Shown here piece by piece: positions 36,805 to 52,488 of a DNA stretch of 64,000 nucleotides. A program made the translations under genes and the position numbers. A model generated the notes under the pieces. That model had not been told where the DNA came from and ran no database searches. It saw nothing but the letters and a program-made list of their open reading frames with translations. Location of the stretch: the sequence record NC_047822.1. One strand, given 5' to 3'. The DNA comes from Escherichia phage phiLLS. Numbering within the stretch: position 1 is the stretch's first letter; every line of letters begins with the position of its first letter.

Positions 36805-37188
36805 ATGAGTAAAGAAATTGAATTAGAACAAGCCCTTCTGAGTTACTCCAATTACTTGCAGAGTGATAAAGAAACTATTACTAAGGAACAGGTATTATTA
36901 ATACTAGACTCTATCACTTCTAAATTCAGGACTTTAGAAGACTACTACTCTGTAGGCAATGGAGATGAGAAGGTAGAGTTACGTCTAAATCTTCTAGAAG
37001 ATATGGGTTGGGACGAGGAAGATCAATTAGGATATTTAGGTATATCTACAGAAATTCTAGAAAATACAGAGCATGAAAATATACTTGAAGTAAAGAGCAA
37101 AAGTGCTATTCGATATAATACTTATGGTACAGGTATTACAGGAATAAAAGCATTACTTAGTATAGACATAGGATGGTTAGATGAGTAA
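36805..37188 (+). CDS. hypothetical protein
   Basis: 127 aa from MSKEIELE with AAGGA SD. Confidence 0.5.
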   Translation: MSKEIELEQALLSYSNYLQSDKETITKEQVLLILDSITSKFRTLEDYYSVGNGDEKVELRLNLLEDMGWDEEDQLGYLGISTEILENTEHENILEVKSKSAIRYNTYGTGITGIKALLSIDIGWLDE

Positions 37189-37729
37189 AAAGTTACCTAG
37201 CCAAGAAAGATTAAAAGAAATACTAATCTATGACCCAGATACTGGTATATTTACTAATAAGGTAAGTCGTGGTAGGGGAGGAAAAGCAGGTTCGCTAGCT
37301 GGATACCTAAGAAAAGACGGCTATATAACTATTAAGATAGATAAAATAGATTATTTAGCGCATAGGTTAGCCTTTCTATACATGACAGGATCAATACCTG
37401 ATTTAATAGACCACAAAAATAGAATTAGGTCAGATAATAGGTGGATAAATCTAAGAGAAGCTACAAGCCAGTCTAATAACAGAAATTGTACCGCATCGAG
37501 TAAATCTGGATATCTAGGTGTACACTGGAACAAACAACTACAGAAATGGCAAGTACAGGTGATTGATAATAATGGTAAAAATATTTACGGGGGTGTTTTT
37601 GACTACTTAGACCTAGAAAGTGCGGTCATAAAGGCTAATGAACTAAGAAAAACACTTCATGGTAACGAAGCAGTTATAGAAGATTTCTATACCAACTATT
37701 ACCCACCAATAGAGGAACTTAATAAGTGA
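37181..37729 (+). CDS. HNH homing endonuclease (AP2-like domain)
   Basis: 182 aa; IDHKNRIRSDNRWINLREAT HNH motif. Confidence 0.8.
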   Translation: MSKKLPSQERLKEILIYDPDTGIFTNKVSRGRGGKAGSLAGYLRKDGYITIKIDKIDYLAHRLAFLYMTGSIPDLIDHKNRIRSDNRWINLREATSQSNNRNCTASSKSGYLGVHWNKQLQKWQVQVIDNNGKNIYGGVFDYLDLESAVIKANELRKTLHGNEAVIEDFYTNYYPPIEELNK

Positions 37730-38202
37730 GCGTTTTCCACATTTACACAGATGGTGCTTGTAAGTCTAACCCAGGTCCAGGTGCTTGGGGTTTTATTGTC
37801 TATGATGATAACGACGATCGTTTAGGTTCTAAATCTGGATATAGTCCTAAAACTACAAATAATGAGATGGAACTCACGGCTATTGTAGAGGCTCTACGTT
37901 GGTCAGTTAAAAAAGATAATAGACCAATTGTTATCTATACTGACTCTGCTTATTGCAAAAATGGCATGGAAAGTTGGATGTTTTCTTGGCAAAGGAAAGG
38001 CTGGAAGAAAGCAGATGGTGAAGTTCCTCTTAATCTAGAACTTTGGCAGGAAGCATTTAAATTAACACAGCAGTATATCAACTTTCATAATACTAACCCT
38101 ACCTTTATTAAGGTTAAAGGACATTCTGGTATTAGTGGTAATGAAGCTGTAGACGCCTTATGTAACACAGTTATTACTGAAGCTGAAATGGCTGAGATGT
38201 AA
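37726..38202 (+). CDS. rnhA: ribonuclease H
   Basis: 158 aa; IYTDGACKSNPGPGAWG and YTDSAY, GHSG motifs. Confidence 0.85.
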   Translation: MSVFHIYTDGACKSNPGPGAWGFIVYDDNDDRLGSKSGYSPKTTNNEMELTAIVEALRWSVKKDNRPIVIYTDSAYCKNGMESWMFSWQRKGWKKADGEVPLNLELWQEAFKLTQQYINFHNTNPTFIKVKGHSGISGNEAVDALCNTVITEAEMAEM

Positions 38203-38222
38203 TAAATAAATTAAAAATTCTC

Positions 38223-38251
38223 TTGCTTAAATCTCTCTAATTTAGTATAAT
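38223..38251 (+). promoter_or_regulatory. sigma70-type early promoter
   Basis: TTGCTT-17-TATAAT. Confidence 0.55.
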
Positions 38252-38278
38252 ATTTGTATTGAAAGTGAGGAGGGCTTT

Positions 38279-38557
38279 ATGCGGATTTATAACTCAAATT
38301 CATTAGGATTTAAACCATTGAGAAAACGTGCACAATCACCTCGTCAAATAAGAAAGGCTAATATTGGTGAGCCAGAAACACGTCTTCCACCTCCTCCAGA
38401 ACAACGTTTAGTTTATCTGGATGAAGAGTTAGCTGAACGCGAAAGAAAAGCTCAAGAAGAGATTGAGCGTAAGAAAATGTGTACTGCTCCAGCGTATAAT
38501 AAAGGAGCGTATCAATATGTTTCCGATGCAGAACAAGCCAAGATGGTTGGTAGATAA
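38279..38557 (+). CDS. hypothetical protein
   Basis: 92 aa ORF with GAGGAGGG SD. Confidence 0.5.
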   Translation: MRIYNSNSLGFKPLRKRAQSPRQIRKANIGEPETRLPPPPEQRLVYLDEELAERERKAQEEIERKKMCTAPAYNKGAYQYVSDAEQAKMVGR

Positions 38558-38573
38558 TTTTTAAAAAATTCAT

Positions 38574-38602
38574 TTGCTAAACGCTTCAAATTCTCGTATA
38601 AT
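38574..38602 (+). promoter_or_regulatory. sigma70-type early promoter (canonical copy of repeated module)
   Basis: AAAAATTCATTTGCTA -35, 17 bp, TATAAT, then CATAAATTGA. Confidence 0.65.
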
Positions 38603-38640
38603 ATACTTCATAAATTGATAAACAAAAAGGAAAATAAATA

Positions 38641-39156
38641 ATGGCTAAGCAGAAAAACGCAAAAACTCAAGCAGCTACTACAGTTAAAACTTTCCCTCAG
38701 ACTGAGGCTAACCGCAAAGCTCGTCTGGAACGCCACCTGCGCAAGCACCCTACTGATGCTCAAGCTGCACAGGCACTGAATCGTCCGGCTCCGATTCGTC
38801 AAAAGCCGAAGGCTAAGAACGCAACTCGTTCTGTAGCCCGCCTTGTGACCTATGTACAGGGTTACGGTCACAAATCTGTTCCAGTAGCACTGAGTTTCAA
38901 TGCTGGAGCAGAATTGTTCCCTCGTAATGGCATGGCCATGAAAGATTACGAGAAAGCAGTTAACCAGAAACGCAAACCAACGGCAGATGTATTGCGTGAT
39001 ACTCGTGGACAGTTTGGTTCTGTTAAGCCAAATATCTTTGGCGTAGAGTATAGTAAAGATAATGTTCGTGCTCTGTGTTACGGTGTAGGCATTAAGTTCA
39101 CGGGTGATTCTGCTCGTAAATCTGCTAAACCAGCTCGTAAACGTAAAGCGAAGTAA
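38641..39156 (+). CDS. hypothetical basic protein (possible nucleic-acid binding)
   Basis: 171 aa, Lys/Arg-rich termini. Confidence 0.5.
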   Translation: MAKQKNAKTQAATTVKTFPQTEANRKARLERHLRKHPTDAQAAQALNRPAPIRQKPKAKNATRSVARLVTYVQGYGHKSVPVALSFNAGAELFPRNGMAMKDYEKAVNQKRKPTADVLRDTRGQFGSVKPNIFGVEYSKDNVRALCYGVGIKFTGDSARKSAKPARKRKAK

Positions 39157-39219
39157 TAGATAAATAGGGGCTTCTGCCCCTAGAATCTACTAATTCTCTA
39201 ACTAATCAAGGATATTTTT

Positions 39220-39435
39220 ATGTTCTCTAAGAAACCACGTTCTGTTACTGAAATCGTTGCTTCCTTTACCATCATCACTGATGAGCTTCAAGCTCGTATT
39301 GAGGCTGATCAAAAAATTGCTGCGGATATTCAGAAACAGCAGGAAGAACTCGCTTTAAAGTTGGCTGAAACCAACAAGAGTGAAAAATCTGCCCAAACTA
39401 TTATGGAAAATATCCTTAAACTGCTGGGCAAGTGA
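39220..39435 (+). CDS. hypothetical protein
   Basis: 71 aa ORF. Confidence 0.45.
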   Translation: MFSKKPRSVTEIVASFTIITDELQARIEADQKIAADIQKQQEELALKLAETNKSEKSAQTIMENILKLLGK

Positions 39436-39566
39436 TTTAAATCAGGGGGCGAAAGCCACTCTTATTTGGAGAAACTATGCGTAATTTTGTAGCAAAGAAT
39501 GATTTTAACCGTGCTAGCACCCATAAGTCAGCTAGGGATTATACATGACTTTCTAGTCATGAGGTA

Positions 39567-39713
39567 ATGGATGCCTGTTATGAAGAGCTGGAAGGTAGCT
39601 GGAATGAATGGCCCGACTTCTCTATGGAAGAGAACTGGGATGTCAGTGAGGATATGCTTCCTGGTTTTAAAGACCCCAAGAAGTGGGAGTCTATTAAAGA
39701 GACAGCTCTTTAA
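39567..39713 (+). CDS. hypothetical small acidic Trp-rich protein
   Basis: 48 aa ORF (MDACYEELEGSWNEW...), GAGG SD; below track size cutoff. Confidence 0.3.
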   Translation: MDACYEELEGSWNEWPDFSMEENWDVSEDMLPGFKDPKKWESIKETAL

Positions 39714-39741
39714 TAGTTTTCTACACAATAAAGGATAAGTT

Positions 39742-40443
39742 ATGAAAGTAAAACCATTTGGTATGCTAGATATTGAATCTCTAGGAACTCCAGGAGATTG
39801 TGGTACTACTCATATCGCAATGCCTTCTTTCGCTTTTGTGGCTATGCATGGGATTGACAAAGACCCTGACTTAGTATTTGTTACTTTGGATGTGCAGGAT
39901 CAGCTTAATTCTGGTGCCAAAGTTACAGCATCTACTCTAGCATTCTGGATGGATCAAGCTAAAAATAGCCCCTCTGCTATTCACATAATGGAAGCTATGA
40001 AGGAACGTAATCCAAAACTGATTGCCTTCCAAAATGGTAAACATCACTGTACTAATAAGCTCGGCTCTAACTATGCTGCCTTCTCTATGGCTCAAAATAT
40101 TATGGAGTTGGCTCTAGGCGAAAATGCTTTGTATTATGGCAATGGCCCAGAGTTTGATATGACTATCTACTCTGCAAACACGTTCCATGCTGGAACCAAT
40201 GAAGAGGTAGTTCCGTGGAAATTCTGGAATTTGGGTAATGTTCGATCTCTTCGTAATCTCTGGATGCAAGCTGGATACAGTTATAAGGCTCTAGAGACCG
40301 AAGCTATTAGCTGGGCAATAGCTAAAATGGAGAAGATGGACACCATTCGTTATGGGATCTATCCGGTTAAGCACGACCCAGCATTCGATGCACTAGTTGA
40401 GGGCTATTGTGTTGCAGCTATGATCGAAAAAATGAAAATTTGA
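39742..40443 (+). CDS. putative DEDDh-type 3'-5' exonuclease
   Basis: 233 aa; MLDIESLG (Exo I DxE-like) and YPVKHDPAFDA (Exo III H-x4-D-like). Confidence 0.5.
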   Translation: MKVKPFGMLDIESLGTPGDCGTTHIAMPSFAFVAMHGIDKDPDLVFVTLDVQDQLNSGAKVTASTLAFWMDQAKNSPSAIHIMEAMKERNPKLIAFQNGKHHCTNKLGSNYAAFSMAQNIMELALGENALYYGNGPEFDMTIYSANTFHAGTNEEVVPWKFWNLGNVRSLRNLWMQAGYSYKALETEAISWAIAKMEKMDTIRYGIYPVKHDPAFDALVEGYCVAAMIEKMKI

Positions 40444-40444
40444 T

Positions 40445-40473
40445 TTGCTTCCGGCTTCAAAATTCTGTATAAT
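40445..40473 (+). promoter_or_regulatory. sigma70-type early promoter
   Basis: TTGCTT-17-TATAAT. Confidence 0.55.
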
Positions 40474-40513
40474 ATATTCATAAATTTGAGAAAACAATAA
40501 AAGGAAAACAAAT

Positions 40514-40696
40514 ATGCCAGTATCTAAAAATGTTCGTAAAAATGGTAAGAAAGCTACTCGTAATCTGGGTATCCGTCGTATGGCTGAACGTCAATCAGGT
40601 GTCCAGAAAATCTTTGATCTGCTAAATCGTGCTAATCCTAAAATTGATAACAGTAACGATACTGTTCTACGCACTCTGCTGGCAATTGGTCTGTAA
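40514..40696 (+). CDS. hypothetical small basic protein
   Basis: 60 aa ORF. Confidence 0.4.
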   Translation: MPVSKNVRKNGKKATRNLGIRRMAERQSGVQKIFDLLNRANPKIDNSNDTVLRTLLAIGL

Positions 40697-40749
40697 TAGA
40701 CCAACTTTAAACAAATTCAAATCTCAAACTTCATATAAGGAAGCAAATA

Positions 40750-41388
40750 ATGACTACTCGTATTTCTAAAACTCGCGCTCTAGCAACTATCAAATCTCTG
40801 GAAGCTAAAATCCGTAAAGCTACTGAACAGCAGCTTCTGATCGCTGTTGGTGAAGGTAAGGATAAAAACCAGGTTGTAGTTGGCGCTGCAATCGAAGTAG
40901 CTGATCTGTCTACTCGTATTAAGACTGATTTCCAGTCTCTGCTGGATATGATGTCCCAGCGTGATTGTATCAAAGCTGCTCTGATTAAAAGCAATGCGGA
41001 AACAATCGTTGAGATTGGCTCTCGTAAGATGACTGTTGCGGAAGCAATTGAAGCTAAGCGTTCTATGGAACTTAAAGCCCAATTGCTGGCTAACATGCGT
41101 AAGCAGTTCCATGCCGCTACGGTTAAGTTTAATACGCAGAAAGCACAGTTTGATGCTAAATATGAGCGTTTGCAGGATAGCATGGCTACCCGCGATAAGA
41201 AAACTTCCGAAGATGAAGTTAAAATGCAGCTCAACCTGCTGGAACTCAAGAATACTCCATTCTTGATTGATCCGCTGGAACTGGAAAAGCTGATTAAGCA
41301 GCATGACGAGGAATACCAGGACTTTGCAACAAATGTTGACTTTGTTCTGTCCGAGTCTAACGCCTCTACCTTCATTGAAGTAGAGTAA
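40750..41388 (+). CDS. hypothetical protein
   Basis: 212 aa ORF; antisense ORFs 40731-41430 rejected. Confidence 0.55.
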   Translation: MTTRISKTRALATIKSLEAKIRKATEQQLLIAVGEGKDKNQVVVGAAIEVADLSTRIKTDFQSLLDMMSQRDCIKAALIKSNAETIVEIGSRKMTVAEAIEAKRSMELKAQLLANMRKQFHAATVKFNTQKAQFDAKYERLQDSMATRDKKTSEDEVKMQLNLLELKNTPFLIDPLELEKLIKQHDEEYQDFATNVDFVLSESNASTFIEVE

Positions 41389-41771
41389 TAATTTAAAAGC
41401 TAGTAAATCGGTAGACGAAAGCCCAAGCATCTTACCTCGCAGCAGCGGTTGAAATACGAGGTTAAATAAGACCGCTGACCATACTATAAAATATAATCTA
41501 TTGGAGATTATGTTTATTACACCAGCCTTTTAAGCTGACACGTAAGAACAAAGCGTCGTTGATATTACCGACACAACTTCAAAGATCAACATTTAAGTAT
41601 GAAAGCTGAAAAGTTTAAAGAACTCAAACTTCTAAACTTCTAAAGCTAAAAGATGCAAAGTATTCGTTGATGATTCAAACCCTAGATCAAAGGTACATGG
41701 CTCATAAGATATGGCCTGTGGCGCCTCTAGGCTGTTTATCGGTTTACTAGTTTCACAATTTAAAAATGTAT

Positions 41772-41800
41772 TTGCTAATTTACTAAGTTATCTGTATAAT
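41772..41800 (+). promoter_or_regulatory. sigma70-type early promoter
   Basis: TTGCTA-17-TATAAT. Confidence 0.55.
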
Positions 41801-41830
41801 ATATTTTTAAATTGATGAAACGAGGCTATT

Positions 41831-42148
41831 ATGACTTTTCATATTTTGATTGATGATGTGCGTAATCTTCACGGAATGGACATTATCATTCGAACCCCAG
41901 AAGCCGCTGTCGAGTTTCTGAATAAAACTGATACCACAGGCCACTTCGTTTATATGGATAATGACTTGGCTGTAGATGGTATGGAAGGTTATCAAATTCT
42001 TCGTTTACTCTTAGAATTTGGGCAGAGACCAAAGAAAGTGGTACTAGTAACCTCGAACCCAGTAGCTAAGCAACATATGCGTAATGATTTGCTTGACTTA
42101 GGGTACAAAGAAAGCCCCAATCGTGTTGAATATGATTGGCAGGAGTAA
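41831..42148 (+). CDS. stand-alone CheY-like receiver (REC) domain protein
   Basis: 105 aa; ILIDDV acidic pocket, FVYMDNDL (phospho-acceptor Asp region), VVLVTS (conserved Thr/Ser), downstream Lys; alignable to CheY by eye. Confidence 0.5.
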   Translation: MTFHILIDDVRNLHGMDIIIRTPEAAVEFLNKTDTTGHFVYMDNDLAVDGMEGYQILRLLLEFGQRPKKVVLVTSNPVAKQHMRNDLLDLGYKESPNRVEYDWQE

Positions 42149-42603
42149 AAAGAATGAAGGCAGCTTTGCTTTTAGTAGCTGCCCTTACCTTCAGCTTTAG
42201 TAGTCAGGCATCGCACGATGCAAAAGAAATAGATTGCATTGCTAAAAATATCTATTTCGAAAGTCGTGGTGAGGGCATAAAGGGAATGACGGCGATTGCA
42301 CACGTTACTAAAAACCGTGTAAACTCCGGTAAATTCCCAGATTCCTACTGTAAAGTAGTATATCAGTCTAACCAGTTCTCTTGGGTATCTAAGAGACCAA
42401 AAGTTGATAAAACTGATGAGGCTTGGCAAACCGCTAAGAATTTAGCTAGAGTGATATACTACGTTGATTTACCACAAGATCCTACACATGGAGCACTATA
42501 CTTCCATAGTGGTAAAGATAAACCTTACTGGACAAAGAAGTTTAAGAAAACAACTAAGATTAAGGGACATACGTTTTATAAACCTGTTGTCACTAAAACT
42601 TAA
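42136..42603 (+). CDS. secreted SleB-like cell-wall hydrolase
   Basis: 155 aa; N-terminal signal peptide; NIYFESRGEG...AHVTKNRV...YCKVVYQSNQFSW. Confidence 0.65.
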   Translation: MAGVKRMKAALLLVAALTFSFSSQASHDAKEIDCIAKNIYFESRGEGIKGMTAIAHVTKNRVNSGKFPDSYCKVVYQSNQFSWVSKRPKVDKTDEAWQTAKNLARVIYYVDLPQDPTHGALYFHSGKDKPYWTKKFKKTTKIKGHTFYKPVVTKT

Positions 42604-44135: not shown

Positions 44136-44207
44136 CGGGGTGTAGTCTAAGGGAGAGGCAGGAGTCTTCTAAATTCCTTTATGCAGGTTCGAATCCTGTC
44201 ACCTCGG
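44136..44207 (+). tRNA. tRNA-Arg (anticodon TCT)
   Basis: 7-bp acceptor, D/anticodon/T arms fold; TTCGAAT T-loop; CCA encoded. Confidence 0.8.
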
Positions 44208-44244
44208 CCAATTTTATTAACTGTAACTAAAACAAAGGAAATAT

Positions 44245-45192
44245 ATGTTTGCTACTAAAAATATGAAAGAACTGACTTCTGAGCAGAAAGTAATTCGTAC
44301 TATTAAACGTTGGGGTATTGGTGCTGTAGTTGGTTTAGCAGGTTTAGTCCTAGCTTTTAATTCATATACTATTGTTTCTGATGGTACGGTTAAAACCCAA
44401 ACATTCCTGGGTAAAGTAGACCCTAATCCTGTATTACCTGGTTTTCATCTTGTAAACCCATTTGCATCTTTCGATACTTTTAGTACAAAAGACATTGCTG
44501 TAAAATTAGATAAACTTCAGGTTCCTAGTCAGGATAAGTTTAAATCCACTGTTGACCTGACTGTTATGTTGCAGTTTGATGGTTCTAAGGCACCAATTAA
44601 CCGTATTAACGCAGGTACTCAGGACCAGGCGCTAGACAAGTATGTAACTGAAAAATTACTGTCTACTATTCGTGAGTTTGGTAAATCTGTACCTAAAGCA
44701 CAAGATTTATTTGATGCTAAAATTCAGGCTCAATTGCAAACTGCAATTCAACAGGAAGTTGAAGAGTATGCACGCCCATATGGTTACACAGTTAAGCAGG
44801 TGTTTCTTCAGGATATTACTTTGCCACCAGTAATTATGGAGCAAGTACAAAATACAAAAGTTCGTGAAGAACAAGTTAATGCGGCTAAAGCTGAATTGGC
44901 TCGTGTTGAACAAGAAGCACAGCAGAAAGTCAAACAAGCTGAAGCAGATCGTGAAGCACGTAACAACCAAGCTATCGCTAATGAACGTGACGCCGATGCT
45001 AAGCTGTATGCAGCTAAGAAAGAAGCTGAAGCTAACGCCGCATTGCAACGTACCATTACTCCTGAGATGATTCGTTGGAAGCAATTGGAAGTCGAAATGA
45101 TTCGTGCTCAGAAATATCAAGGTGGTGTACCTCAGACTGTGGTAGGTACTGGCTACGATGGTCAAATGATCATGGATATGCGTAATAAATAA
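44245..45192 (+). CDS. SPFH/band-7 (HflC/prohibitin-like) membrane protein
   Basis: 315 aa; N-terminal TM helix, SPFH-like core, long Ala/Gln/Glu-rich coiled coil. Confidence 0.7.
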   Translation: MFATKNMKELTSEQKVIRTIKRWGIGAVVGLAGLVLAFNSYTIVSDGTVKTQTFLGKVDPNPVLPGFHLVNPFASFDTFSTKDIAVKLDKLQVPSQDKFKSTVDLTVMLQFDGSKAPINRINAGTQDQALDKYVTEKLLSTIREFGKSVPKAQDLFDAKIQAQLQTAIQQEVEEYARPYGYTVKQVFLQDITLPPVIMEQVQNTKVREEQVNAAKAELARVEQEAQQKVKQAEADREARNNQAIANERDADAKLYAAKKEAEANAALQRTITPEMIRWKQLEVEMIRAQKYQGGVPQTVVGTGYDGQMIMDMRNK

Positions 45193-45214
45193 TATCCGCA
45201 CGTAACATCTGAAG

Positions 45215-45252
45215 TAAGCCCTGCGTTCCCTGGAGAGCGCAGGGCTTTTCTG
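45215..45252 (+). terminator. rho-independent terminator
   Basis: agccctgcg...cgcagggct hairpin + TTTTCT. Confidence 0.7.
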
Positions 45253-45269
45253 TACTTAAGATAAAAGAA

Positions 45270-45302
45270 AAGCCCCTAAGTCTTTCTACTAGGGGCTTTA
45301 TT
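45270..45302. terminator. bidirectional terminator hairpin
   Basis: agcccctag...ctaggggct hairpin flanked by A-run and T-rich tail. Confidence 0.6.
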
Positions 45303-45516
45303 GTTTGGTTTCTTAGAACCATATACTCTTGTTACAGCAACCACCCATACGGGAGGCCAATCTTGACTGAAAATCTACTCTAGGGGGCAGGATAAGAGTA
45401 GGCTTAAAGGCAAAGGGATTGAACGCCGGTATTTGTGTAAACATTGCTGGAGAGCAACAACGTGCTACAGGCATTGGGCAGCACGAAACAGATTTTCTGC
45501 AACACATAATTTCTCC

Positions 45517-45933
45517 TTAGGAGTTATTACCACCATTTTGAGCTTTTGCAACTTGGCTTTGGCAGAAGCTATTAAACTTACCCATAAGTGATACAAGCTG
45601 TTTCCCATCCTCTGTCTTTGCGAAGTCTTCGAAAAGGGCTAGTACTGCCTGTCCTTCCGCAGAAACCTGCGGTTGTTGGGTTTGTTGCTGAACTTGCTGC
45701 TGAGCCACCTGTTGCTGCATTTGTTGAGGCATTTGCGACTGCCCGCTCATTTGCTGCATCATTTGCATAGGACTCACACTTCCAGGGTTTTGCTGGAGTT
45801 GTTGCTGCATCTGTTGCGCTTCTGCTAAACGCTGTTGCAATTGTTGTAAGTAGGGGTTATCCAGACCCGGAATGGGCTGCTGGGAGCCCCTACTTTGATT
45901 AAGTCCGTTATTTACAAAACCATATTTACTCAT
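45517..45933 (-). CDS. Gln-rich low-complexity protein (hypothetical)
   Basis: 138 aa; poly-Q/QQM repeats; co-oriented with 45955-46947. Confidence 0.55.
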   Translation of the reverse strand: MSKYGFVNNGLNQSRGSQQPIPGLDNPYLQQLQQRLAEAQQMQQQLQQNPGSVSPMQMMQQMSGQSQMPQQMQQQVAQQQVQQQTQQPQVSAEGQAVLALFEDFAKTEDGKQLVSLMGKFNSFCQSQVAKAQNGGNNS

Positions 45934-45954
45934 AATGGGCTCCTCCCCCTAATA

Positions 45955-46947
45955 TTAAGCCGGCAGTTTAGCCTGCAGACCAGCCAGAGTCTGAGTGATA
46001 GCACCAAGACTTACAGCGATTTGATTAATTACCTGACCGTTAGCACCGTTACCCGCAGCGATTGCTTCACGTAGGCGACATGCATCTAACTCATCCTGAA
46101 TACGAGCAGTAGTTACACCAGCGATAGCAGTCTGAAGTTCACAGCAACATTCAGCGATCTGACGTTCCAGAGAGTTCTGGTTAGCACACATCTGAGCCTG
46201 AACAGCGGCAAACTGGTTATTAGTTTGTAAAGTCTGCTGGAAAGCGATCTGTGCAGAATCAAACTTATCTTGTGCACGAGCTATCTGATTAGCTGCGAAA
46301 GATTGATCAATCTGGCGAGAAAGATCGAACTGACCCTGAATAACGTTGCGAGTTTCCTGACAGATCTGATTAGACAGATTAGCACCTGTACCATAGATCG
46401 TAGTTAGTACAGACTGAGTATCACGGCTCTGGTTTTGGGATGTCTGGCTAAACCCATTGTTAACTGCGCTTAAAACAGCTCCAGTACCCTGGTTAGCTTC
46501 TGTACGAGTAGTGTTAATAGCTGCTAGAATACTAGCGGTATCTTGGTTCTGAAGTACTGCATCAACTGCGGTACCATCACCAACTACACCACGTCCACCG
46601 AATCCACCGAAACCACCGAATCCGCCTGTTAATAGAGCACCGATTAGGATAGCTCCGAATAGTCCCATACCTTCACCACCGAAAGCACCTGCGTTTGCTG
46701 GGTAACCACCCAGTAGGCCAGGGAAGCCACTAGTAAATACGTTTACTGGTTCTTGCATTTTATGTTTTCCATATTTATGACAATGTTCATCGTCATCTTC
46801 TTCATCATCGTGTTCACGATGTTTTTCTTCGTAGGCTCTGACCTTCTCCCACTTTTTCTTATCTGATTCCTCGTGACGGTGCAGTTCTGCTGCAACGCTA
46901 GCGACGGTCTCAGGACTCTTAGCTACTTCTTCTGTCATTTTTGACAC
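45955..46947 (-). CDS. Gly-rich / Gln-Asn-Ala-rich hypothetical protein with His/acidic N-terminus
   Basis: 330 aa; strong SD (AGGAGGTG); GGFGGFGGFGG hydrophobic Gly segment; C-terminal half predicted helical. Confidence 0.6.
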   Translation of the reverse strand: MSKMTEEVAKSPETVASVAAELHRHEESDKKKWEKVRAYEEKHREHDDEEDDDEHCHKYGKHKMQEPVNVFTSGFPGLLGGYPANAGAFGGEGMGLFGAILIGALLTGGFGGFGGFGGRGVVGDGTAVDAVLQNQDTASILAAINTTRTEANQGTGAVLSAVNNGFSQTSQNQSRDTQSVLTTIYGTGANLSNQICQETRNVIQGQFDLSRQIDQSFAANQIARAQDKFDSAQIAFQQTLQTNNQFAAVQAQMCANQNSLERQIAECCCELQTAIAGVTTARIQDELDACRLREAIAAGNGANGQVINQIAVSLGAITQTLAGLQAKLPA

Positions 46948-47145
46948 CTCCTAGTATATAGAAAATGTGTGTCTCTTTGATCACTCATCCATAACATATA
47001 CTTTACACTACCCCAGCGAAAATGTCAAGGGGTCTTTAAAAATTGCCCCTGAATTTTTAGTGGGGTCACAAATTTTGGTCCTCACCACTTATCTGCTATC
47101 CTTAAGTGCCCTATGATTTTCCTCTAAAAAGTTAAAAAAATTTGA

Positions 47146-47174
47146 TTGCTTGAATGCTAAATTCTCTGTATAAT
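47146..47174 (+). promoter_or_regulatory. sigma70-type early promoter
   Basis: TTGCTT-17-TATAAT. Confidence 0.55.
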
Positions 47175-47204
47175 ATATCTATAAATTTGAAAGAGGAACC
47201 AAAT

Positions 47205-47723
47205 ATGAATGTTGATGAGCTAACACAGCACCTCTTATCTAGAGGATTTGATACAGATAAATATCATTGCTGGTTAAGTCCGGAAGGATGGCTAACAGTC
47301 CCGTTGTATGACTTCTCTGGGATGTTGAGGGGCTATCAAACTTATAATCCTTCTGCTCCAAAAGGTCATGGTAAGTGCCCCTTTGAAGCTAAATACTTTA
47401 CTTATTCTACTACCCAGTGTGTATGGGGACTAGAAACTCTCAATGGAGATGAAAAAGTAGTATTGATTGCTGAATCTGTATTTAAGGCAGTTGCGTTACA
47501 TAATGCTGGTTATCCAGCCCTAGCAATGTTGGGTTCTTCTCCAGGAAAAGCGTTATTAAAGCAACTGAAATTACTACCTTTTAAATTGGTAGCTGTCGGA
47601 GATAATGATCCTGCGGGTGAAAAATTTGCTAGAAAATTAAACGGCTTTGTTTCTCCCGTAGATGTGGATGAGATGTCTACCGAAAACTTGAAAAATTTTC
47701 TTGCTATGAAGCTAAATTTCTAA
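47205..47723 (+). CDS. TOPRIM-domain protein (hypothetical)
   Basis: 172 aa; VVLIAESVFKAV ... AVGDNDPAGEKFARKL resembles TOPRIM E...DxD core. Confidence 0.5.
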   Translation: MNVDELTQHLLSRGFDTDKYHCWLSPEGWLTVPLYDFSGMLRGYQTYNPSAPKGHGKCPFEAKYFTYSTTQCVWGLETLNGDEKVVLIAESVFKAVALHNAGYPALAMLGSSPGKALLKQLKLLPFKLVAVGDNDPAGEKFARKLNGFVSPVDVDEMSTENLKNFLAMKLNF

Positions 47724-47729
47724 TATAAT
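47700..47729 (+). promoter_or_regulatory. sigma70-type promoter overlapping 3' end of preceding ORF
   Basis: TTGCTA-18-TATAAT. Confidence 0.45.
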
Positions 47730-47744
47730 ATATCTTATAAATTC

Positions 47745-47830
47745 GGAAGAATAGCATAACGGTATTGCAGCAGATTGCTAATCTGTCGGTTTGAAATATA
47801 GCCTTGTGGGTTCGATTCCCGCTTCTTCCG
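47745..47830 (+). tRNA. tRNA-Ser (anticodon GCT), class II
   Basis: perfect acceptor ggaagaa/ttcttcc, long variable arm, TTCGATT T-loop, CCA encoded. Confidence 0.8.
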
Positions 47831-47839
47831 CCAAATTCT

Positions 47840-47914
47840 GGTTCTCAAGCTCATATGGTATGAGCACCCGGCTCATAACCGGAAGGTACGTAGGTTCGAA
47901 TCCTCGGGGAGCCA
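47840..47914 (+). tRNA. tRNA with CAT anticodon (Met/fMet/Ile2)
   Basis: acceptor and D stems pair; anticodon loop CTCATAA; CCA encoded; T-stem imperfect. Confidence 0.65.
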
Positions 47915-47936
47915 CCAAATTAAATAGAGGTCACAA

Positions 47937-48125
47937 ATGGATCTATATATAGTTTATGTTGTGTTTATCCAAGATAGAGAATACCCGGATGAATATAAAA
48001 AAGGGTATAGGTTGGCCAGAGCTACCTCTGAAGCCCAAGCTATGGATAAAGTGGCAGATTATATGATTACGGTAGAAAACATACACTATATCGACTACCT
48101 TGAAGCCTCAAAAGTAATTGACTAA
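47937..48125 (+). CDS. hypothetical protein
   Basis: 62 aa ORF. Confidence 0.4.
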   Translation: MDLYIVYVVFIQDREYPDEYKKGYRLARATSEAQAMDKVADYMITVENIHYIDYLEASKVID

Positions 48126-48131
48126 ACTACA

Positions 48132-48205
48132 CGGGGGTGTAATCGAATTGGCATAGGTACTGGACTTAAAATTCAGGTTTTGTGGGTTCGAATCCCACCA
48201 CCCCT
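48132..48205 (+). tRNA. tRNA with TAA anticodon (Leu-decoding) but short variable arm
   Basis: perfect T-arm GTGGG/CCCAC, anticodon stem CTGGA/TTCAG, loop CTTAAAA; CCA encoded. Confidence 0.6.
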
Positions 48206-48384
48206 ACCAAACTAAGGAAATAAGATGTATAGACATCCACCTCCGCCAACACGTCGTTCTAGAGAAGTTATCCTCATGGAATTGACTAAAAACTTCAAGG
48301 CAACTCTTGAAGATAGAGATCTAGGTACAGATGAAGACGTTGATTTCATTTGTAAACTATTAAAAATGAAGCTGGAGAAACATC

Positions 48385-48591
48385 ATGGCTAACCGTGAAA
48401 TTACTATGCAACGAATCATGACTAAAGGCATGATAGCCGAGGCAGGTATTGAACAAGAAGTAAAAGGCTATTACGAACAGATTAAGACTATTATAGACTC
48501 TGCTAAAAACACCGGAGAAAAAGAGCATGGTGCGGCAATTATGGCTATAACTCTTATTAGTCTAGACTTGGCCGAAGAATCTGGAGTTTAG
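48385..48591 (+). CDS. hypothetical protein
   Basis: 68 aa ORF. Confidence 0.4.
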   Translation: MANREITMQRIMTKGMIAEAGIEQEVKGYYEQIKTIIDSAKNTGEKEHGAAIMAITLISLDLAEESGV

Positions 48592-48621
48592 CTCCTCCAA
48601 ACAGAATTTTTAAAAATGTAC

Positions 48622-48651
48622 TTGCCTTTTGCTTTAAATTTCTGATATAAT
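48622..48651 (+). promoter_or_regulatory. sigma70-type early promoter
   Basis: TTGCCT-18-TATAAT. Confidence 0.5.
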
Positions 48652-48681
48652 AGTTATATAAATTGATGGAGGAGTTAACGA

Positions 48682-48957
48682 ATGCAAAATCGTGTTGTAG
48701 CAACTGGTATTGAAAGTGCAATCTGTAAATCCTGGGAAGGCTGGGAAGGTGAGATTGAATGGCTTTATTTCTATGATGTAGAACTTCTACCGGAAGTTAA
48801 AGCTAAATGTATTGAAGCTGGCATGGCTCCAGATGCAAAAGCTGATATTGATATTTTAATGTCTGAACTTAAAGGTCGTGTAGTTACCGTTAGTAATGAG
48901 GGCGAAGAAGTTTTCGAACTTCCGTTCTCCTTAACTGTCACTCCTAAGTTCGACTAA
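48682..48957 (+). CDS. hypothetical protein
   Basis: 91 aa ORF with GGAGG SD. Confidence 0.5.
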   Translation: MQNRVVATGIESAICKSWEGWEGEIEWLYFYDVELLPEVKAKCIEAGMAPDAKADIDILMSELKGRVVTVSNEGEEVFELPFSLTVTPKFD

Positions 48958-48993
48958 CTAATACAGCACTGAGCAAGTTCTTTAAAATTTGAC

Positions 48994-49022
48994 TTGCTCA
49001 GTGCTATAAAACTTGATATAAT
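48994..49022 (+). promoter_or_regulatory. sigma70-type promoter overlapping a 15-bp inverted repeat
   Basis: TTGCTC-17-TATAAT; IR cagcactgagcaagt / acttgctcagtgctat spans the -35. Confidence 0.5.
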
Positions 49023-49156
49023 AGTTATCTAATTTGGAAAGTTCTTTTTAAGGTAGTTCCTACTTTAGTAGAGTAAATTTTTGGCAGATGGCCCCCACCA
49101 TTTTACCGATAACTCCTAGTCAGTGCGGCAACACTGGCTACCTTAAAGAGAATTTT

Positions 49157-49241
49157 GGGCGTTTATTCCGTAAGTGGTAGCGGAGGGGATTGTAAATCCC
49201 TGGTCATTGCGACTCGAGTGGTTCGACTCCATTAACGCCCA
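49157..49241 (+). tRNA. tRNA-Tyr (anticodon GTA), class II
   Basis: perfect acceptor gggcgtt/aacgccc; anticodon loop TTGTAAA; CCA encoded. Confidence 0.8.
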
Positions 49242-49251
49242 CCAATTTAAT

Positions 49252-49323
49252 GCACCTATCGTCTAGCGGTTAGGACACCACTCTTTCACAGTGGGAACAC
49301 GAGTTCGACCCTCGTTGGGTGTG
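49252..49323 (+). tRNA. tRNA-Glu (anticodon TTC)
   Basis: perfect T and anticodon stems; loop CTTTCAC; CCA encoded. Confidence 0.8.
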
Positions 49324-49335
49324 CCAATTAATAAT

Positions 49336-49403
49336 TGGGGTACGCATAGGTTGCAAATGGGCCTCCAAAACCCATGAAAAGGTTTCGAATACCTTTACCC
49401 CTG
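49336..49403 (+). tRNA. tRNA-like element (possible pseudo-tRNA; 9-nt anticodon-like loop)
   Basis: T-arm AAGGT/ACCTT with TTCGAAT loop and CCA, but 5' acceptor mismatch and no consistent cloverleaf. Confidence 0.3.
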
Positions 49404-49412
49404 CCAAAATTT

Positions 49413-49484
49413 GCACCTTTAGCTGAGATGGATTAGCGCTTGCCTGAAGAGCTTGAGAGGTTCGTTCGATTCGAACAGGGTGCA
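49413..49484 (+). tRNA. tRNA-Phe (anticodon GAA)
   Basis: acceptor, D and T arms pair; anticodon loop CTGAAGA; CCA encoded; two U-U mismatches in anticodon stem. Confidence 0.65.
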
Positions 49485-49504
49485 CCAATTTGAAGGAGCT
49501 GCTG

Positions 49505-49777
49505 ATGCATACTGAAAACTTCTTTATTTACTGCGCGGATAAGTCGCTGAAACGTAGAATTAACAAAGTCTATCATTATCGTGTTAGTCAACAGCCTTAT
49601 GTATATGCTTTTGACGGTGATCACATTCCACTAGAACAATTATCTTGTGATTACATGATATTGAAGAACTTTGACGAGACAAAGATCTCAAGCGTTCATA
49701 ATCGACAGAATCCATTAACGTGGAAATATAAGAAGAAAAAGAAAGGCATCAAATTCTTAAAAAATGTAGTTGCTTAG
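49505..49777 (+). CDS. hypothetical protein
   Basis: 90 aa ORF between tRNA genes. Confidence 0.45.
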   Translation: MHTENFFIYCADKSLKRRINKVYHYRVSQQPYVYAFDGDHIPLEQLSCDYMILKNFDETKISSVHNRQNPLTWKYKKKKKGIKFLKNVVA

Positions 49778-49798
49778 TTTCCAAAAGTTCTGTATAAT
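49770..49798 (+). promoter_or_regulatory. sigma70-type early promoter
   Basis: TTGCTT-17-TATAAT. Confidence 0.5.
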
Positions 49799-49846
49799 AA
49801 TTACATAAATTGAACTGGAGAAGCAACATGACAGAATAAGATAAAC

Positions 49847-49919
49847 CGACCGTTGGCTGAATGGCTTAGGCGAAGGATTGCAAATCCTTTTTATGTGAGT
49901 TCAAATCTCATGCGGTCGT
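49847..49919 (+). tRNA. tRNA-Cys (anticodon GCA)
   Basis: acceptor cgaccgt/gcggtcg, perfect anticodon stem AAGGA/TCCTT; CCA encoded. Confidence 0.8.
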
Positions 49920-49943
49920 CCAAATTACTAAAGGAAAGAAGTA

Positions 49944-50462
49944 GTGCATACAAAAGTTTTTGATAGTTTGGTAAAGAAAGGCATTGTTACTAATAAGCCT
50001 TTCTGTATAACCGCAGAACTAATCCAAAGATTTATGGAAGAATATATAAATCTTTCAGGAACTAATGGTAATACCAAAAAGAATACAAATACTATGTATT
50101 CGAGAAAACTTGCCGCACTTTCCTTTATAAAGTTTAAGCAGGAAAATAAACTTCCTATTTCTGAAGGTTTTGTATACTGTATTAGTAATCCTGCATGGAA
50201 AAATCAGTATAAAATAGGTATGAGTCAAAATCCAAAAGAGAGATTAGCTCAATATCAGACCTATTCCCCCTATAGGGATTATAAATTAGAGCATTGGTCG
50301 TTTTGGTTTGACAAACGAAAAGGTGAAAAACTAATTCACCAGTATTTCAAAGATTTAAAAGAACATGAGTGGTTTAGTATAAATTCTAGGGATCTTAGTA
50401 AATATCTAGAACGTATTAACTCTAGTTCTGACTTATATGGTTCCTTAGCTCTAATTGGTTAG
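49944..50462 (+). CDS. T5orf172-domain (GIY-YIG-like) protein
   Basis: 172 aa; GFVYCISNPAWKNQYKIGMS...EHEWF pattern; GTG start with AAGGAAAG SD; 3' end overlaps next tRNA. Confidence 0.55.
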   Translation: MHTKVFDSLVKKGIVTNKPFCITAELIQRFMEEYINLSGTNGNTKKNTNTMYSRKLAALSFIKFKQENKLPISEGFVYCISNPAWKNQYKIGMSQNPKERLAQYQTYSPYRDYKLEHWSFWFDKRKGEKLIHQYFKDLKEHEWFSINSRDLSKYLERINSSSDLYGSLALIG

Positions 50463-50513
50463 AGCGGCATCTTGTTAAGTTGAGGGTTGCTGGTTCGAAT
50501 CCAGCAGGAACCG
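50439..50513 (+). tRNA. tRNA-Asn (anticodon GTT)
   Basis: perfect acceptor ggttcct/aggaacc, D and T stems; loop TTGTTAA; CCA encoded. Confidence 0.7.
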
Positions 50514-50618
50514 CCAAATTCTGTGTAGAGTTAAGTAAACCGGTAGCCAACCAGCTATCATTGCTGACATCGAATTCAGCCACAGATACCATTTTCATTA
50601 ATAACTGAGGAAATAAGC

Positions 50619-50804
50619 ATGTCCAAGAATGTAATTGCGCAGCTAGAAGTTCATCGTGATAGCACTATCAACAATATTGAAGTTGAAAAGAAATACATCG
50701 AAGAACTTAAACACGATATACTAATAAGTCTCAATCGTCTTAATGTACGAAAAGAGTTTCTTAAAGAACTTAATGCAGCTATTGAAAAACTCAAAGCTGA
50801 GTAA
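50619..50804 (+). CDS. hypothetical protein
   Basis: 61 aa ORF with GAGGAAA SD. Confidence 0.45.
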   Translation: MSKNVIAQLEVHRDSTINNIEVEKKYIEELKHDILISLNRLNVRKEFLKELNAAIEKLKAE

Positions 50805-50813
50805 ATGAATTAT

Positions 50814-50887
50814 GCGACCGGGGCTGGCTTGGTAATGGTACTCCCCTGTCACGGGAGGGAATGTGGGTTCAAATCCCATCGGTCGCG
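50814..50887 (+). tRNA. tRNA-Asp (anticodon GTC)
   Basis: perfect acceptor gcgaccg/cggtcgc and anticodon stem; CCA encoded. Confidence 0.8.
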
Positions 50888-50915
50888 CCAAATTAATTTA
50901 GTATGAGAATATACT

Positions 50916-51263
50916 ATGCGTAATGCCAAAGAAGAGCTGTTACTTGCCTTAAAAAATACTAATTCTGAAGTTAAATGTATTAAAATAGAATTCGGGTATT
51001 ATGGGGATAAAAAAGTTTGGGTATTGCCTTTAGGTTACACAGAAGAAGATATTGAGGATTTTCTTAATAACCTAGACTTTAAATATGACTCTGGGTACGG
51101 TGGACAATTACTTTATGGTAATGTATGGTTTGCCGATGGAACTTGGCTAGAACGTGGAGAATATGATGGTGCTGAGTGGTGGGAATACAAAGCCACACCA
51201 GCAATTCCAGAGGAATGCCGAACAATTAATGGTGAAGTAGATAATACTTTACGGTTAAACTAA
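50916..51263 (+). CDS. hypothetical protein
   Basis: 115 aa ORF. Confidence 0.5.
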   Translation: MRNAKEELLLALKNTNSEVKCIKIEFGYYGDKKVWVLPLGYTEEDIEDFLNNLDFKYDSGYGGQLLYGNVWFADGTWLERGEYDGAEWWEYKATPAIPEECRTINGEVDNTLRLN

Positions 51264-51385
51264 TAAAATTTCAGTGCAGAACACGGAGCTAGCAATTCGG
51301 AAGTGCTGACTCATGATAAGCTGCCTATGTACTTGCGAAGCGGTCGTGTCCAAGACTCGGACTCTTGCACTGAAAACAATCAAAC

Positions 51386-51506
51386 ATTCTAGCGTGGTTG
51401 ATGGGGAAACCAGCTTGGCTAGGGCAGAAGCTCGTTCGATTCGAGTGAAAGAATGGTTCTCGTAAGTCCGCACAAGTGATAACAGGTTCGAGTCCTGTCT
51501 AGAATG
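51386..51506 (+). ncRNA. tRNA-like structured RNA (~120 nt) with perfect 7-bp acceptor-type closing helix and T-arm
   Basis: attctag (51386-92) pairs with ctagaat (51499-505); T-arm ACAGG-TTCGAGT-CCTGT; internal hairpins; no CCA. Confidence 0.35.
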
Positions 51507-51692
51507 ACATATTCTGGAGATTCTATGGATTATGAAGAGTTAGATAAATTAGCTGATACATTATCAGAACTATCTGATAATGTAGTAATAAAAGATTCTA
51601 GGATAGACAGTTTTATTGCTGATTATCGTAATGGTATTATCTCTAGGCAAGAACTAGTAGATAAAACTTATCAATATTTAAAGGGAAAGTAA
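51504..51692 (+). CDS. hypothetical protein
   Basis: 62 aa ORF. Confidence 0.4.
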   Translation: MTYSGDSMDYEELDKLADTLSELSDNVVIKDSRIDSFIADYRNGIISRQELVDKTYQYLKGK

Positions 51693-51712
51693 ACGAAAGT
51701 TTACTTATTATG

Positions 51713-51810
51713 TAGGTTCCGATAGATCGGCGGGTCTATTCTGGCATTTAAGAGAAGTCTCGCAAACTTCTTTGTCAGCCGTGGGGTTGGTAGCCTCCAG
51801 GTGGCCTACA
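51713..51810 (+). ncRNA. tRNA-like element (~98 nt) without canonical T-loop
   Basis: terminal helix gtaggtt/ggcctac; internal anticodon-like hairpin AGAAGT-CTCGCAA-ACTTCT. Confidence 0.3.
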
Positions 51811-51837
51811 CAATAAGTAAATTTATTAAAAATTCAT

Positions 51838-51866
51838 TTGCTATTCTGCTTTATTATCTGTATAAT
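51838..51866 (+). promoter_or_regulatory. sigma70-type early promoter
   Basis: AAAAATTCATTTGCTA-17-TATAAT. Confidence 0.6.
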
Positions 51867-51899
51867 ATATTTTATAAAGTGAAGAGAAGGAAAGCAAAA

Positions 51900-52058
51900 T
51901 GAAACACAAGATAGCTCAAGTTTTTATGGCATTATGGTGTATGCCAATAGCTATAACAGCATTTAATCTAGATACTTTTACTATAGAAGAAAAATGTATC
52001 GGATTAGTTAGCGGTTTTAGTATGCTGGGCTTATCTTTGCTGTGGTTAAAGAAATAAT
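51900..52058 (+). CDS. hypothetical small membrane protein
   Basis: 52 aa ORF (MKHKIAQVFMALWCMPIAITAF...) with AAGGAAAG SD; below track cutoff. Confidence 0.4.
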
Positions 52059-52061
52059 ATT

Positions 52062-52136
52062 CTCCGTGTAGCTCAGTTTGGCCAGAGCGTTTCGTTTGGG
52101 GCGATAGGGTCGGGGGTTCAAATCCTCCCACGGAGA
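52062..52136 (+). tRNA. tRNA-Pro (anticodon TGG)
   Basis: perfect acceptor ctccgtg/cacggag, D stem GCTC/GAGC, T-loop TTCAAAT; CCA encoded. Confidence 0.75.
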
Positions 52137-52145
52137 CCAAACAAT

Positions 52146-52220
52146 TGCGGGTTAGATCTCTGGTAGAGATCGCTAGTCTCATAAGCTAGAAAGAGGTAGG
52201 TTCGATTCCTGCACCCGCTT
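52146..52220 (+). tRNA. tRNA with CAT anticodon (Met/fMet/Ile2); 1:72 mismatch
   Basis: anticodon stem CTAGT/GCTAG, loop CTCATAA; CCA encoded. Confidence 0.7.
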
Positions 52221-52243
52221 CCATTTTAATAGAGGATTTCGAA

Positions 52244-52411: not shown

Positions 52412-52412
52412 T

Positions 52413-52488
52413 AGATCGCTAGCTCAATAGGTTTAGTAGCATCCGACTTTTAATCGGAAGGTTCTGGGTTCGAGTCCCAGGCGATCTA
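52413..52488 (+). tRNA. tRNA-Lys (anticodon TTT)
   Basis: perfect acceptor, anticodon stem TCCGA/TCGGA, T-arm CTGGG/CCCAG; CCA encoded. Confidence 0.85.

What the first reader, a model, noticed from the sequence alone, without database searches (positions are those of the whole stretch)
39742..40443. Early-expressed putative DEDDh 3'-5' exonuclease
The 233-aa protein has an N-terminal DIES motif and a C-terminal H-x4-D (HDPAFDA) motif, spaced like DnaQ-family DEDDh exonucleases, yet it lies outside the replication module among small early genes. It may degrade host nucleic acids or a nucleotide-based signal instead of proofreading.
Basis: partly seen in the sequence, partly recalled or inferred. 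Interest (0 to 1): 0.45.

Follow-up and report, generated by a model that had tools for sequence, protein, structure and literature searches.

The report
T5-type DexA-like 3'-5' exonuclease gene

The parts
39742..40443 (+). CDS, 233 aa: DEDDh 3'-5' exonuclease of the DexA/Rv2179c-like family; ortholog of T5 gene T5.087
39769..39780 (+). Exo I motif D10-I-E12-S (metal ligands D10 and E12)
   Evidence: Invariant in 93 of 93 aligned sequences; aligns with DexA D7/E9.
40138..40158 (+). Exo II motif G133-N-G-P-E-F-D139 (metal ligand D139)
   Evidence: D139 is invariant in 93 of 93 sequences and aligns with DexA D119; F138 is present in 91 of 93.
40372..40389 (+). Exo III motif H211-D-P-A-F-D216 (general base H211, metal ligand D216)
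   Evidence: H211 and D216 are present in 92 of 93 sequences (the remaining one has a gap); they align with DexA H186/D191 and with the catalytic set named in PMC12153337.
40213..40230 (+). P158-W-K-F-W162-N motif shared with DexA (PCKFWN); W162 aligns with DexA W152
   Evidence: Alignment. In DexA, W152 of the partner subunit contacts the substrate base (PMC12153337).
39683..39724 (+). Conserved 19-bp RNA hairpin (loop ACAG at 39702-39705) overlapping the stop codon of the upstream small ORF, ending 18 nt before the exonuclease ATG
   Evidence: Perfect 11-nt arms (I21). MFE -19.5 kcal/mol, z -3.3. Present in 11 diverse loci. 13 of 19 pairs show compensatory changes; 93.6% of cells are paired against 40-47% when the partner is slid; 0 of 500 shuffles reach the observed values. 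No Rfam family matches.
39477..39713 (+). T5.088 ortholog (DUF7230-type small protein, 78 codons), interrupted here by an in-frame TGA at 39546-39548; fused to the exonuclease in some relatives
   Evidence: Translation. CGA in NBSal005 and T5 against TGA here. DUF7230 and PHROG 4586 matches. Fused 334-aa CDS in Klebsiella phage PQ569710.
38574..38602 (+). Early promoter (TTGCTA-17-TATAAT), counterpart of the annotated T5 promoter P-H207 and the likely operon promoter
   Evidence: Promoter scan. Matches the T5 P-H207 region at every aligned position except one, which lies downstream of the -10 element. Annotation in NC_005859 and in S114.
38641..39156 (+). T5.089 ortholog (DUF7022), first gene of the conserved DUF7022 - DUF7230 - exonuclease module
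   Evidence: PF22887, E 5.6e-77. DUF7022 lies upstream in 5 of the 8 metagenomic loci; the other three do not show it within the flank read. 'Fit' in the T5 knock-down screen.

Best explanation
The ORF encodes the T5.087 ortholog, a DnaQ-fold DEDDh 3'-5' exonuclease of the DexA/Rv2179c-like family. By the established two-metal mechanism of this superfamily, D10, E12, D139 and D216 would hold two Mg2+ ions and H211 would activate the attacking water, releasing 5'-mononucleotides one at a time from a free 3'-OH end. This is inferred from invariant residues and the fold; it was not assayed. By analogy with its closest solved relative, T4 DexA, it most likely works as a homodimer on single-stranded DNA and oligonucleotides. 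Candidate substrates are leftover host DNA fragments and 3' ends made during recombination or HNH homing, which it would convert to dNMPs next to the phage's nucleotide-metabolism genes. It is an accessory enzyme, not the proofreader. It appears to be the last cistron of an early operon: P-H207-like promoter, then T5.089, a 71-aa ORF, T5.088 and T5.087. It probably cooperates with the small T5.088 protein, and a conserved RNA hairpin between the two genes probably tunes its expression. Confidence by step: DEDDh exonuclease of this family about 0.95; not proofreading about 0.9; DNA or oligonucleotide substrate with a DexA-like role about 0.5.
Against: No biochemistry exists for this clade (0 papers mention T5.087). 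Identity to DexA is only about 16%, with three insertions, and the DexA D169 loop is missing. The Pfam family is named after an RNA exonuclease, and the best Foldseek hit among solved structures is RNase T, so sequence does not settle DNA versus RNA. From my own knowledge of T5 biology: T5 destroys host DNA at the pre-early stage, with A1 as the main determinant (bioRxiv 10.64898/2026.04.02.716235), and is known to discard rather than re-use the products, which weakens a scavenging role. Dimerisation and the T5.088 interaction were not testable, and the fused N-terminal region models at low confidence.
Confidence: 0.6

Rival explanations
1. It is an RNA exonuclease of the RNase T / Rv2179c type that trims 3' trailers of the phage's many tRNAs or stable RNAs, or degrades host RNA.
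For: The Pfam family is named after the Rv2179c exoribonuclease (activity summarised in PMC10534295). RNase T is the best Foldseek hit among solved structures. The tRNA cluster starts about 3 kb downstream, and 20 of the 21 tRNA genes encode CCA followed by A/T-rich trailers that need exonucleolytic trimming. Neighbouring genes carry a cyclic-phosphate processing receiver domain and a YqeY-like domain.
Confidence: 0.2
2. It is an anti-defence nuclease that removes a nucleic-acid immune signal or effector, for example linear oligonucleotide second messengers, retron or reverse-transcriptase cDNA, or guide or primer strands.
Confidence: 0.1
3. It is a stand-alone proofreading subunit of the replisome, like Pol III epsilon.
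Against: It lies about 15 kb from the replication genes on the other strand. The phage polymerase has its own 3'-5' exonuclease domain. It is 'Not Fit' in the knock-down screen.
Confidence: 0.03
4. It is a metallopeptidase, as many GenBank records still say.
For: Legacy annotation 'putative metallopeptidase', derived from an InterPro IPR000834 match quoted in NC_005859.
Against: No peptidase family appears in Pfam even at E up to 1. The fold and catalytic residues are those of a DEDDh nuclease. RefSeq has re-labelled it 'exonuclease'.
Confidence: 0.01

Closest known systems
Phage T4 DexA (exonuclease A; PDB 8kel; PMC12153337)
   Different: Only about 16% identity. A longer, conserved loop after Exo I (GTPGDCGTTHIAMPS). 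An insertion of about 22 residues (roughly 83-104) and an extra helix of about 24 residues before Exo III. No DexA C-terminal acidic tail. The loop carrying DexA D169 (5hmC recognition) is absent; from my own knowledge, T5 DNA is not hydroxymethylated. It has a dedicated small partner ORF, sometimes fused, which DexA lacks; T4 dexA.1 and dexA.2 show no evident resemblance to it on inspection of their translations.
Mycobacterium tuberculosis Rv2179c (PDB 4hec), the founding member of PF16473
   Different: Rv2179c has 168 residues (155 in the PDB chain), is cellular, and is reported to act on 3' overhangs of duplex RNA (as summarised in PMC10534295). The phage protein is 233 aa with insertions and scores only 34 bits.
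E. coli RNase T, oligoribonuclease/REXO2 and Pol III epsilon (classical DEDDh enzymes)
   Different: No sequence-level match: PDB sequence searches found none of them. Different accessory segments. Not linked to a polymerase.
Cap18, the CBASS-associated 3'-5' exonuclease (PDB 7t2s)
   Different: Cap18 is a bacterial defence-island protein. There is no PADLOC match for the phage protein and no defence context.

Membership tests
DEDDh (DnaQ-like) 3'-5' exonuclease superfamily | Exo I motif D-x-E near the N-terminus | tested here: met
   D10-I-E12; invariant in 93 of 93 aligned sequences.
DEDDh (DnaQ-like) 3'-5' exonuclease superfamily | Exo II aspartate | tested here: met
   D139 in GNGPEFD; invariant in 93 of 93 sequences; aligns with DexA D119.
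DEDDh (DnaQ-like) 3'-5' exonuclease superfamily | Exo III motif H-x4-D (the 'h' subtype rather than 'y') | tested here: met
   H211-DPAF-D216; present in 92 of 93 sequences (one gap); aligns with DexA H186/D191.
DEDDh (DnaQ-like) 3'-5' exonuclease superfamily | RNase H-like alpha/beta fold superposable on solved DEDDh enzymes | tested here: met
DEDDh (DnaQ-like) 3'-5' exonuclease superfamily | Mg2+-dependent 3'-5' exonuclease activity | not testable with these tools
   Needs purified protein; no publication was found.
Rv2179c-like / DexA family (Pfam PF16473, PHROG 255) | Profile score above the curated gathering threshold | tested here: met
   34.0 bits against 27. PF16473 is also precomputed for most homologs.
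Rv2179c-like / DexA family (Pfam PF16473, PHROG 255) | Same remote-homology cluster and closest structure as T4 DexA | tested here: met
Rv2179c-like / DexA family (Pfam PF16473, PHROG 255) | Homodimer with the active site completed in trans (DexA W152) | tested here: inconclusive
   The equivalent W162 is invariant in the close clade and present in 64 of 93 sequences. Oligomeric state could not be modelled or measured.
T4 DexA 'HREX' function (discrimination of 5hmC DNA) | D169 loop that contacts 5hmC | tested here: not met
   DexA D169 falls in a gap for this protein and for 66 of 93 sequences. So the protein belongs to the DexA family but does not share that specialised function.
Replicative proofreading subunit (epsilon type) | Genetic or physical linkage to a polymerase that lacks its own exonuclease | tested here: not met
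   The gene is about 15 kb from the polymerase on the other strand. The polymerase carries PF01612, E 5.7e-40.
M14-type metallopeptidase (legacy annotation) | Match to a peptidase profile | tested here: not met
   PF16473 is the only Pfam family at E up to 1; no NCBIfam hit.

The most novel reading that the evidence does not exclude
T5.088 (a disordered, basic-then-acidic DUF7230 protein), the covarying RNA hairpin and the T5.087 exonuclease may form one regulated unit specific to Demerecviridae. In this reading the small protein targets or gates the nuclease, or binds the hairpin in the manner of an arginine-rich-motif operator. The true substrate would then be an RNA (tRNA or stable-RNA 3' ends) or a host defence nucleic acid rather than bulk DNA, giving a partner-directed DEDDh nuclease with a role unlike that of DexA.
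Probability: 0.12. Interest if true: 0.55.

Novelty: already known. Interest (0 to 1): 0.22.

Why it matters
As a classification the result corrects nothing new. RefSeq, PHROGs and a published T5 re-annotation already call T5.087 an exonuclease, although hundreds of GenBank records still carry the wrong 'metallopeptidase' label. The value lies in three points. First, T5-like phages carry a distant DexA relative even though T5 DNA is not hydroxymethylated (my own knowledge), so the recently proposed 5hmC-discrimination role of DexA cannot be the ancestral function of the family. Second, the Rosetta-stone fusion with T5.088 and the conserved DUF7022 - DUF7230 - exonuclease module give a concrete hypothesis for two proteins of unknown function. 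Third, the covarying hairpin is an unannotated RNA element that could be tested quickly.

Tried and rejected
Sequence searches of the PDB gave only spurious hits, both with the single protein (designed armadillo repeats, from one short W-rich stretch) and with the 27-sequence profile (PCNA, E about 1). The link to solved structures needed fold comparison.

NCBIfam and PADLOC gave nothing.

A direct search of DexA with a profile HMM built from the clade alignment scored only 5 bits. The residue correspondence was obtained instead through 65 of the 143 intermediate sequences returned by the 1.84-billion-protein profile search.

T4 dexA.1 and dexA.2 were examined as possible counterparts of T5.088; their translations showed no evident resemblance, though no alignment was run.

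An AF2 model of the natural fusion protein (P0020) left the T5.088-like part at low confidence, so it gives no interaction model.

The hairpin is not a member of a repeated family in the window. It is one of only two perfect hairpins with arms of at least 11 nt separated by a 4-nt loop, and the DUF7230 N-terminal motif occurs once.

An intrinsic-terminator reading of the hairpin was considered. It is thought unlikely as a general explanation, because the U-run is itself paired in the extended stem and is replaced by CUCUAC in some relatives.

Literature: no paper mentions T5.087 or links DexA to Demerecviridae. The Rv2179c JBC paper is not held. The T5 host-DNA-degradation preprint implicates A1, not this gene.

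Full report
**1. Observation.**
The ORF is present exactly as described: 39742-40443 on the + strand, ATG start, 233 aa, preceded by AAAGGA at 39730-39735. DIES is residues 10-13 and HDPAFDA is residues 211-217.

**2. Origin of the window.**
The region 38000-42500 is 98.1% identical over its full length to Phage NBSal005 and Escherichia phage JLBYU40, and 448 phage records match it. The window is therefore a Tequintavirus (T5-like, Demerecviridae).
- The protein is 99.6% identical to the JLBYU40 product and is found by tblastn in 582 phage records.
- In the T5 reference NC_005859 the ortholog is T5.087 (44449-45150).
- That note explains why hundreds of GenBank records still say 'metallopeptidase'.

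**3. Family assignment.**
- Pfam gives one hit, PF16473 'Rv2179c-like 3'-5' exoribonuclease domain': E 3.1e-8, 34 bits against a curated cut-off of 27, with no peptidase family even at E up to 1.
- PHROGs places the protein in phrog_255 'exonuclease' (E 9.2e-53).
- T4 DexA, taken from NC_000866, falls in the same PHROG (E 2.3e-90) and the same Pfam family (E 2.4e-22).
- NCBIfam and PADLOC give nothing.

**4. Catalytic residues.**
- A search of 5.8 billion proteins returned 34 homologs, nearly all carrying PF16473. In an alignment of 27 of them, D10, E12, D139, H211 and D216 are invariant.
- A profile search of 1.84 billion cluster representatives found 12 at E<1e-30, 36 at E<1e-10 and 976 at E<0.001. 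The family is thus a small phage clade attached to a large family of 170-200-aa exonucleases.
- In a MAFFT alignment of 93 sequences including T4 DexA, the five residues are again invariant. They align with DexA D7, E9, D119, H186 and D191.
- The DexA structure paper names this set as catalytic by comparison with Pol III epsilon D12/E14/D103/H162/D167 (PMC12153337; its figure legend prints 'E12' for the glutamate).
- The Exo II aspartate, whose absence would have refuted the finding, is therefore present.
- Other shared positions are Q54, T65, W69, R168 and the motif P-x-K-F-W-N.

**5. Fold.**
- An AlphaFold2 model built on the 27-sequence alignment has mean pLDDT 91 and pTM 0.90.
- Foldseek gives RNase T as the best solved match (E 3e-5) and phage 'exonuclease/DexA/3'-5' exoribonuclease' models in BFVD.
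- Sequence-only PDB searches were uninformative.

**6. Differences from DexA.**
- Identity is about 16%.
- The T5 clade has a longer conserved loop after Exo I (GTPGDCGTTHIAMPS), an insertion of about 22 residues (roughly 83-104) and an extra helix of about 24 residues before Exo III.
- It lacks the DexA C-terminal tail and the loop carrying D169, one of the two residues reported to recognise 5hmC.
- The other such residue, W152, is conserved here as W162.
- The protein is therefore filed in the DexA/Rv2179c-like family but not under DexA's 5hmC-discriminating function.

**7. Genomic context.**
- The replication and recombination genes (origin-binding protein, ligase, primase/helicase, polymerase, helicase, SSB, recombinase, SbcCD-like proteins, flap endonuclease, dUTPase) lie on the opposite strand, at roughly window 3.4-24.6 kb.
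- The family A polymerase (9866-12433, minus strand) has its own PF01612 3'-5' exonuclease domain.
- The exonuclease sits on the divergent early arm after phoH, nrdA, nrdB, frd, thy, an HNH gene and rnh. It lies before a cell-wall hydrolase, a YqeY-like gene and the tRNA cluster.
- The same order is seen in Klebsiella and Serratia T5-like phages.
- In all eight metagenomic loci fetched, a small ORF lies immediately upstream of the nuclease. DUF7022 lies upstream of that ORF in five of them.

**8. Expression.**
- A TTGCTA-17-TATAAT promoter at 38574-38602 matches the annotated T5 promoter P-H207 at every aligned position except one, which lies downstream of the -10 element.
- That P-H207 is an early promoter is my own recollection of the T5 promoter literature; it was not tested here.
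- The next annotated promoter overlaps the 3' end of the exonuclease gene (TTGCTT-17-TATAAT at 40445-40473, read).
- The likely operon is therefore T5.089, a 71-aa ORF absent from T5, T5.088 and T5.087.

**9. Phenotype in the literature.**
- In the CRISPRi-ART transcriptome-wide knock-down of T5 (PMC11879866, supplementary files 8 and 16), T5.087 is annotated 'exonuclease, phrog_255' and scored 'Not Fit'. T5.088 is 'Not Fit' and T5.089 is 'Fit'.
- No paper mentions T5.087 by name.
- DexA is likewise dispensable except in optA hosts. [quoted passage not shown]
- A 2026 preprint attributes T5 host-DNA destruction to the pre-early gene A1. A bulk host-DNA role for this early gene is therefore unlikely; clearing oligonucleotides or processing 3' ends is more plausible.

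**10. Partner protein.**
- The 78-codon ORF just upstream (T5.088; PHROG 4586; weak DUF7230 match at its basic N-terminus) is fused in frame to the exonuclease in several lineages (P0015, P0020-22, P0029).
- One such fusion is a 334-aa CDS in the complete genome of Klebsiella phage vB_Kpn_K7_rec11.
- The fusion keeps an internal AAAGGA-N6-ATG, so the short form may still be made.
- T5.088 homologs were found only in T5-like phages.
- In an AF2 model of the fusion, the first 85 residues or so are low-confidence apart from one helix.
- In this window the T5.088 ortholog carries CGA>TGA at 39546. No record in the phage collection shares this change; the best identity is 99.6%, and the single mismatch is this base.

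**11. Hairpin.**
- Between the end of T5.088 and the exonuclease SD lies a hairpin at 39683-39724: perfect 11-nt arms, -19.5 kcal/mol, z -3.3.
- It is present at the same place in every relative examined, with different sequences, and also inside the fused ORF. There, codon changes (W>C, P>T) preserve the pairing.
- On an 11-sequence alignment, 93.6% of cells are paired against 40-47% when the partner is slid. Thirteen of 19 pairs show changes on both sides, and 0 of 500 shuffles reach the observed values.
- Frequent G-U pairs indicate a sense-strand RNA.
- Rfam has no match and NC_005859 annotates nothing there.
- Its role is open: a processing or stability site, an attenuator or an operator.

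**12. Verdict.**
The protein is a DEDDh exonuclease already recognised as such in curated databases, a distant DexA relative, non-essential, with unknown substrate. The fusion partner and the covarying hairpin are the only parts not already annotated.

Noticed in passing
window 39683-39724 (+): A 19-bp RNA hairpin with loop ACAG overlaps the stop codon of the T5.088-like ORF and ends 18 nt before the exonuclease ATG. It is conserved with abundant compensatory changes in 11 Demerecviridae loci, including inside the fused ORF of Klebsiella phages. It is not in Rfam and not annotated in T5.
   Followed up: yes
window 39477-39713 (+), stop at 39546-39548: The T5.088 ortholog carries an in-frame TGA where NBSal005 and T5 have CGA. 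No record in the phage collection shares the change. It could be a private nonsense mutation or a sequencing error. An in-frame ATG at 39567 could restart a 48-aa fragment.
   Followed up: partly
L004 3228-4232 (Klebsiella phage PQ569710); proteins P0015, P0020-22, P0029: A natural in-frame fusion of the T5.088-like small protein to the exonuclease (324-334 aa), which keeps an internal SD and ATG. This is a Rosetta-stone link between the two genes.
   Followed up: partly
window 38641-39156 (+); loci L010, L011, L013-L015: The T5.089 ortholog (DUF7022, 171 aa, basic N-terminus) lies upstream of the small-ORF/exonuclease pair wherever the flank reaches it. It is the only one of the three genes scored 'Fit' in the T5 knock-down screen. 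Its function is unknown.
   Followed up: no
window 41831-42148 (+): A 105-aa protein (T5.084 ortholog) matches Pfam cREC_REC, a 'cyclic-phosphate processing receiver domain' (E 1.6e-14). It lies next to a cell-wall hydrolase and again near the exonuclease in metagenomic locus L010. This hints at RNA-end chemistry.
   Followed up: no
window 39220-39435 (+): A 71-aa coiled-coil-like ORF lies between the T5.089 and T5.088 orthologs. It is present in NBSal005 and S114, where it is mislabelled 'tail length tape-measure protein', but absent from T5. It is flanked by GGGGC...GCCCC hairpins.
   Followed up: no
window 40750-41388 (+) and 41389-41830: The T5.085 ortholog is annotated 'tail fiber protein' (PHROG 1491) although it sits in the early region, so this is probably a misannotation of a coiled-coil protein. 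It is followed by about 440 nt with no ORF of 60 aa or more before the next T5-type promoter at 41772-41800.
   Followed up: no
window 44136-55956 (+): Twenty of the 21 tRNA genes encode their 3' CCA, followed by A/T-rich trailers (mostly AATT or ATTT), so each needs 3' exonucleolytic trimming. A perfect 12-nt hairpin lies at 51557-51584 within this region.
   Followed up: partly
window 37181-37729 (+): An HNH homing-endonuclease gene is inserted just upstream of rnh, overlapping both neighbouring ORFs by a few bases. T5 has no gene at this spot (thy is directly followed by rnh). This may be relevant if the exonuclease takes part in homing-associated end processing, as DexA does.
   Followed up: no
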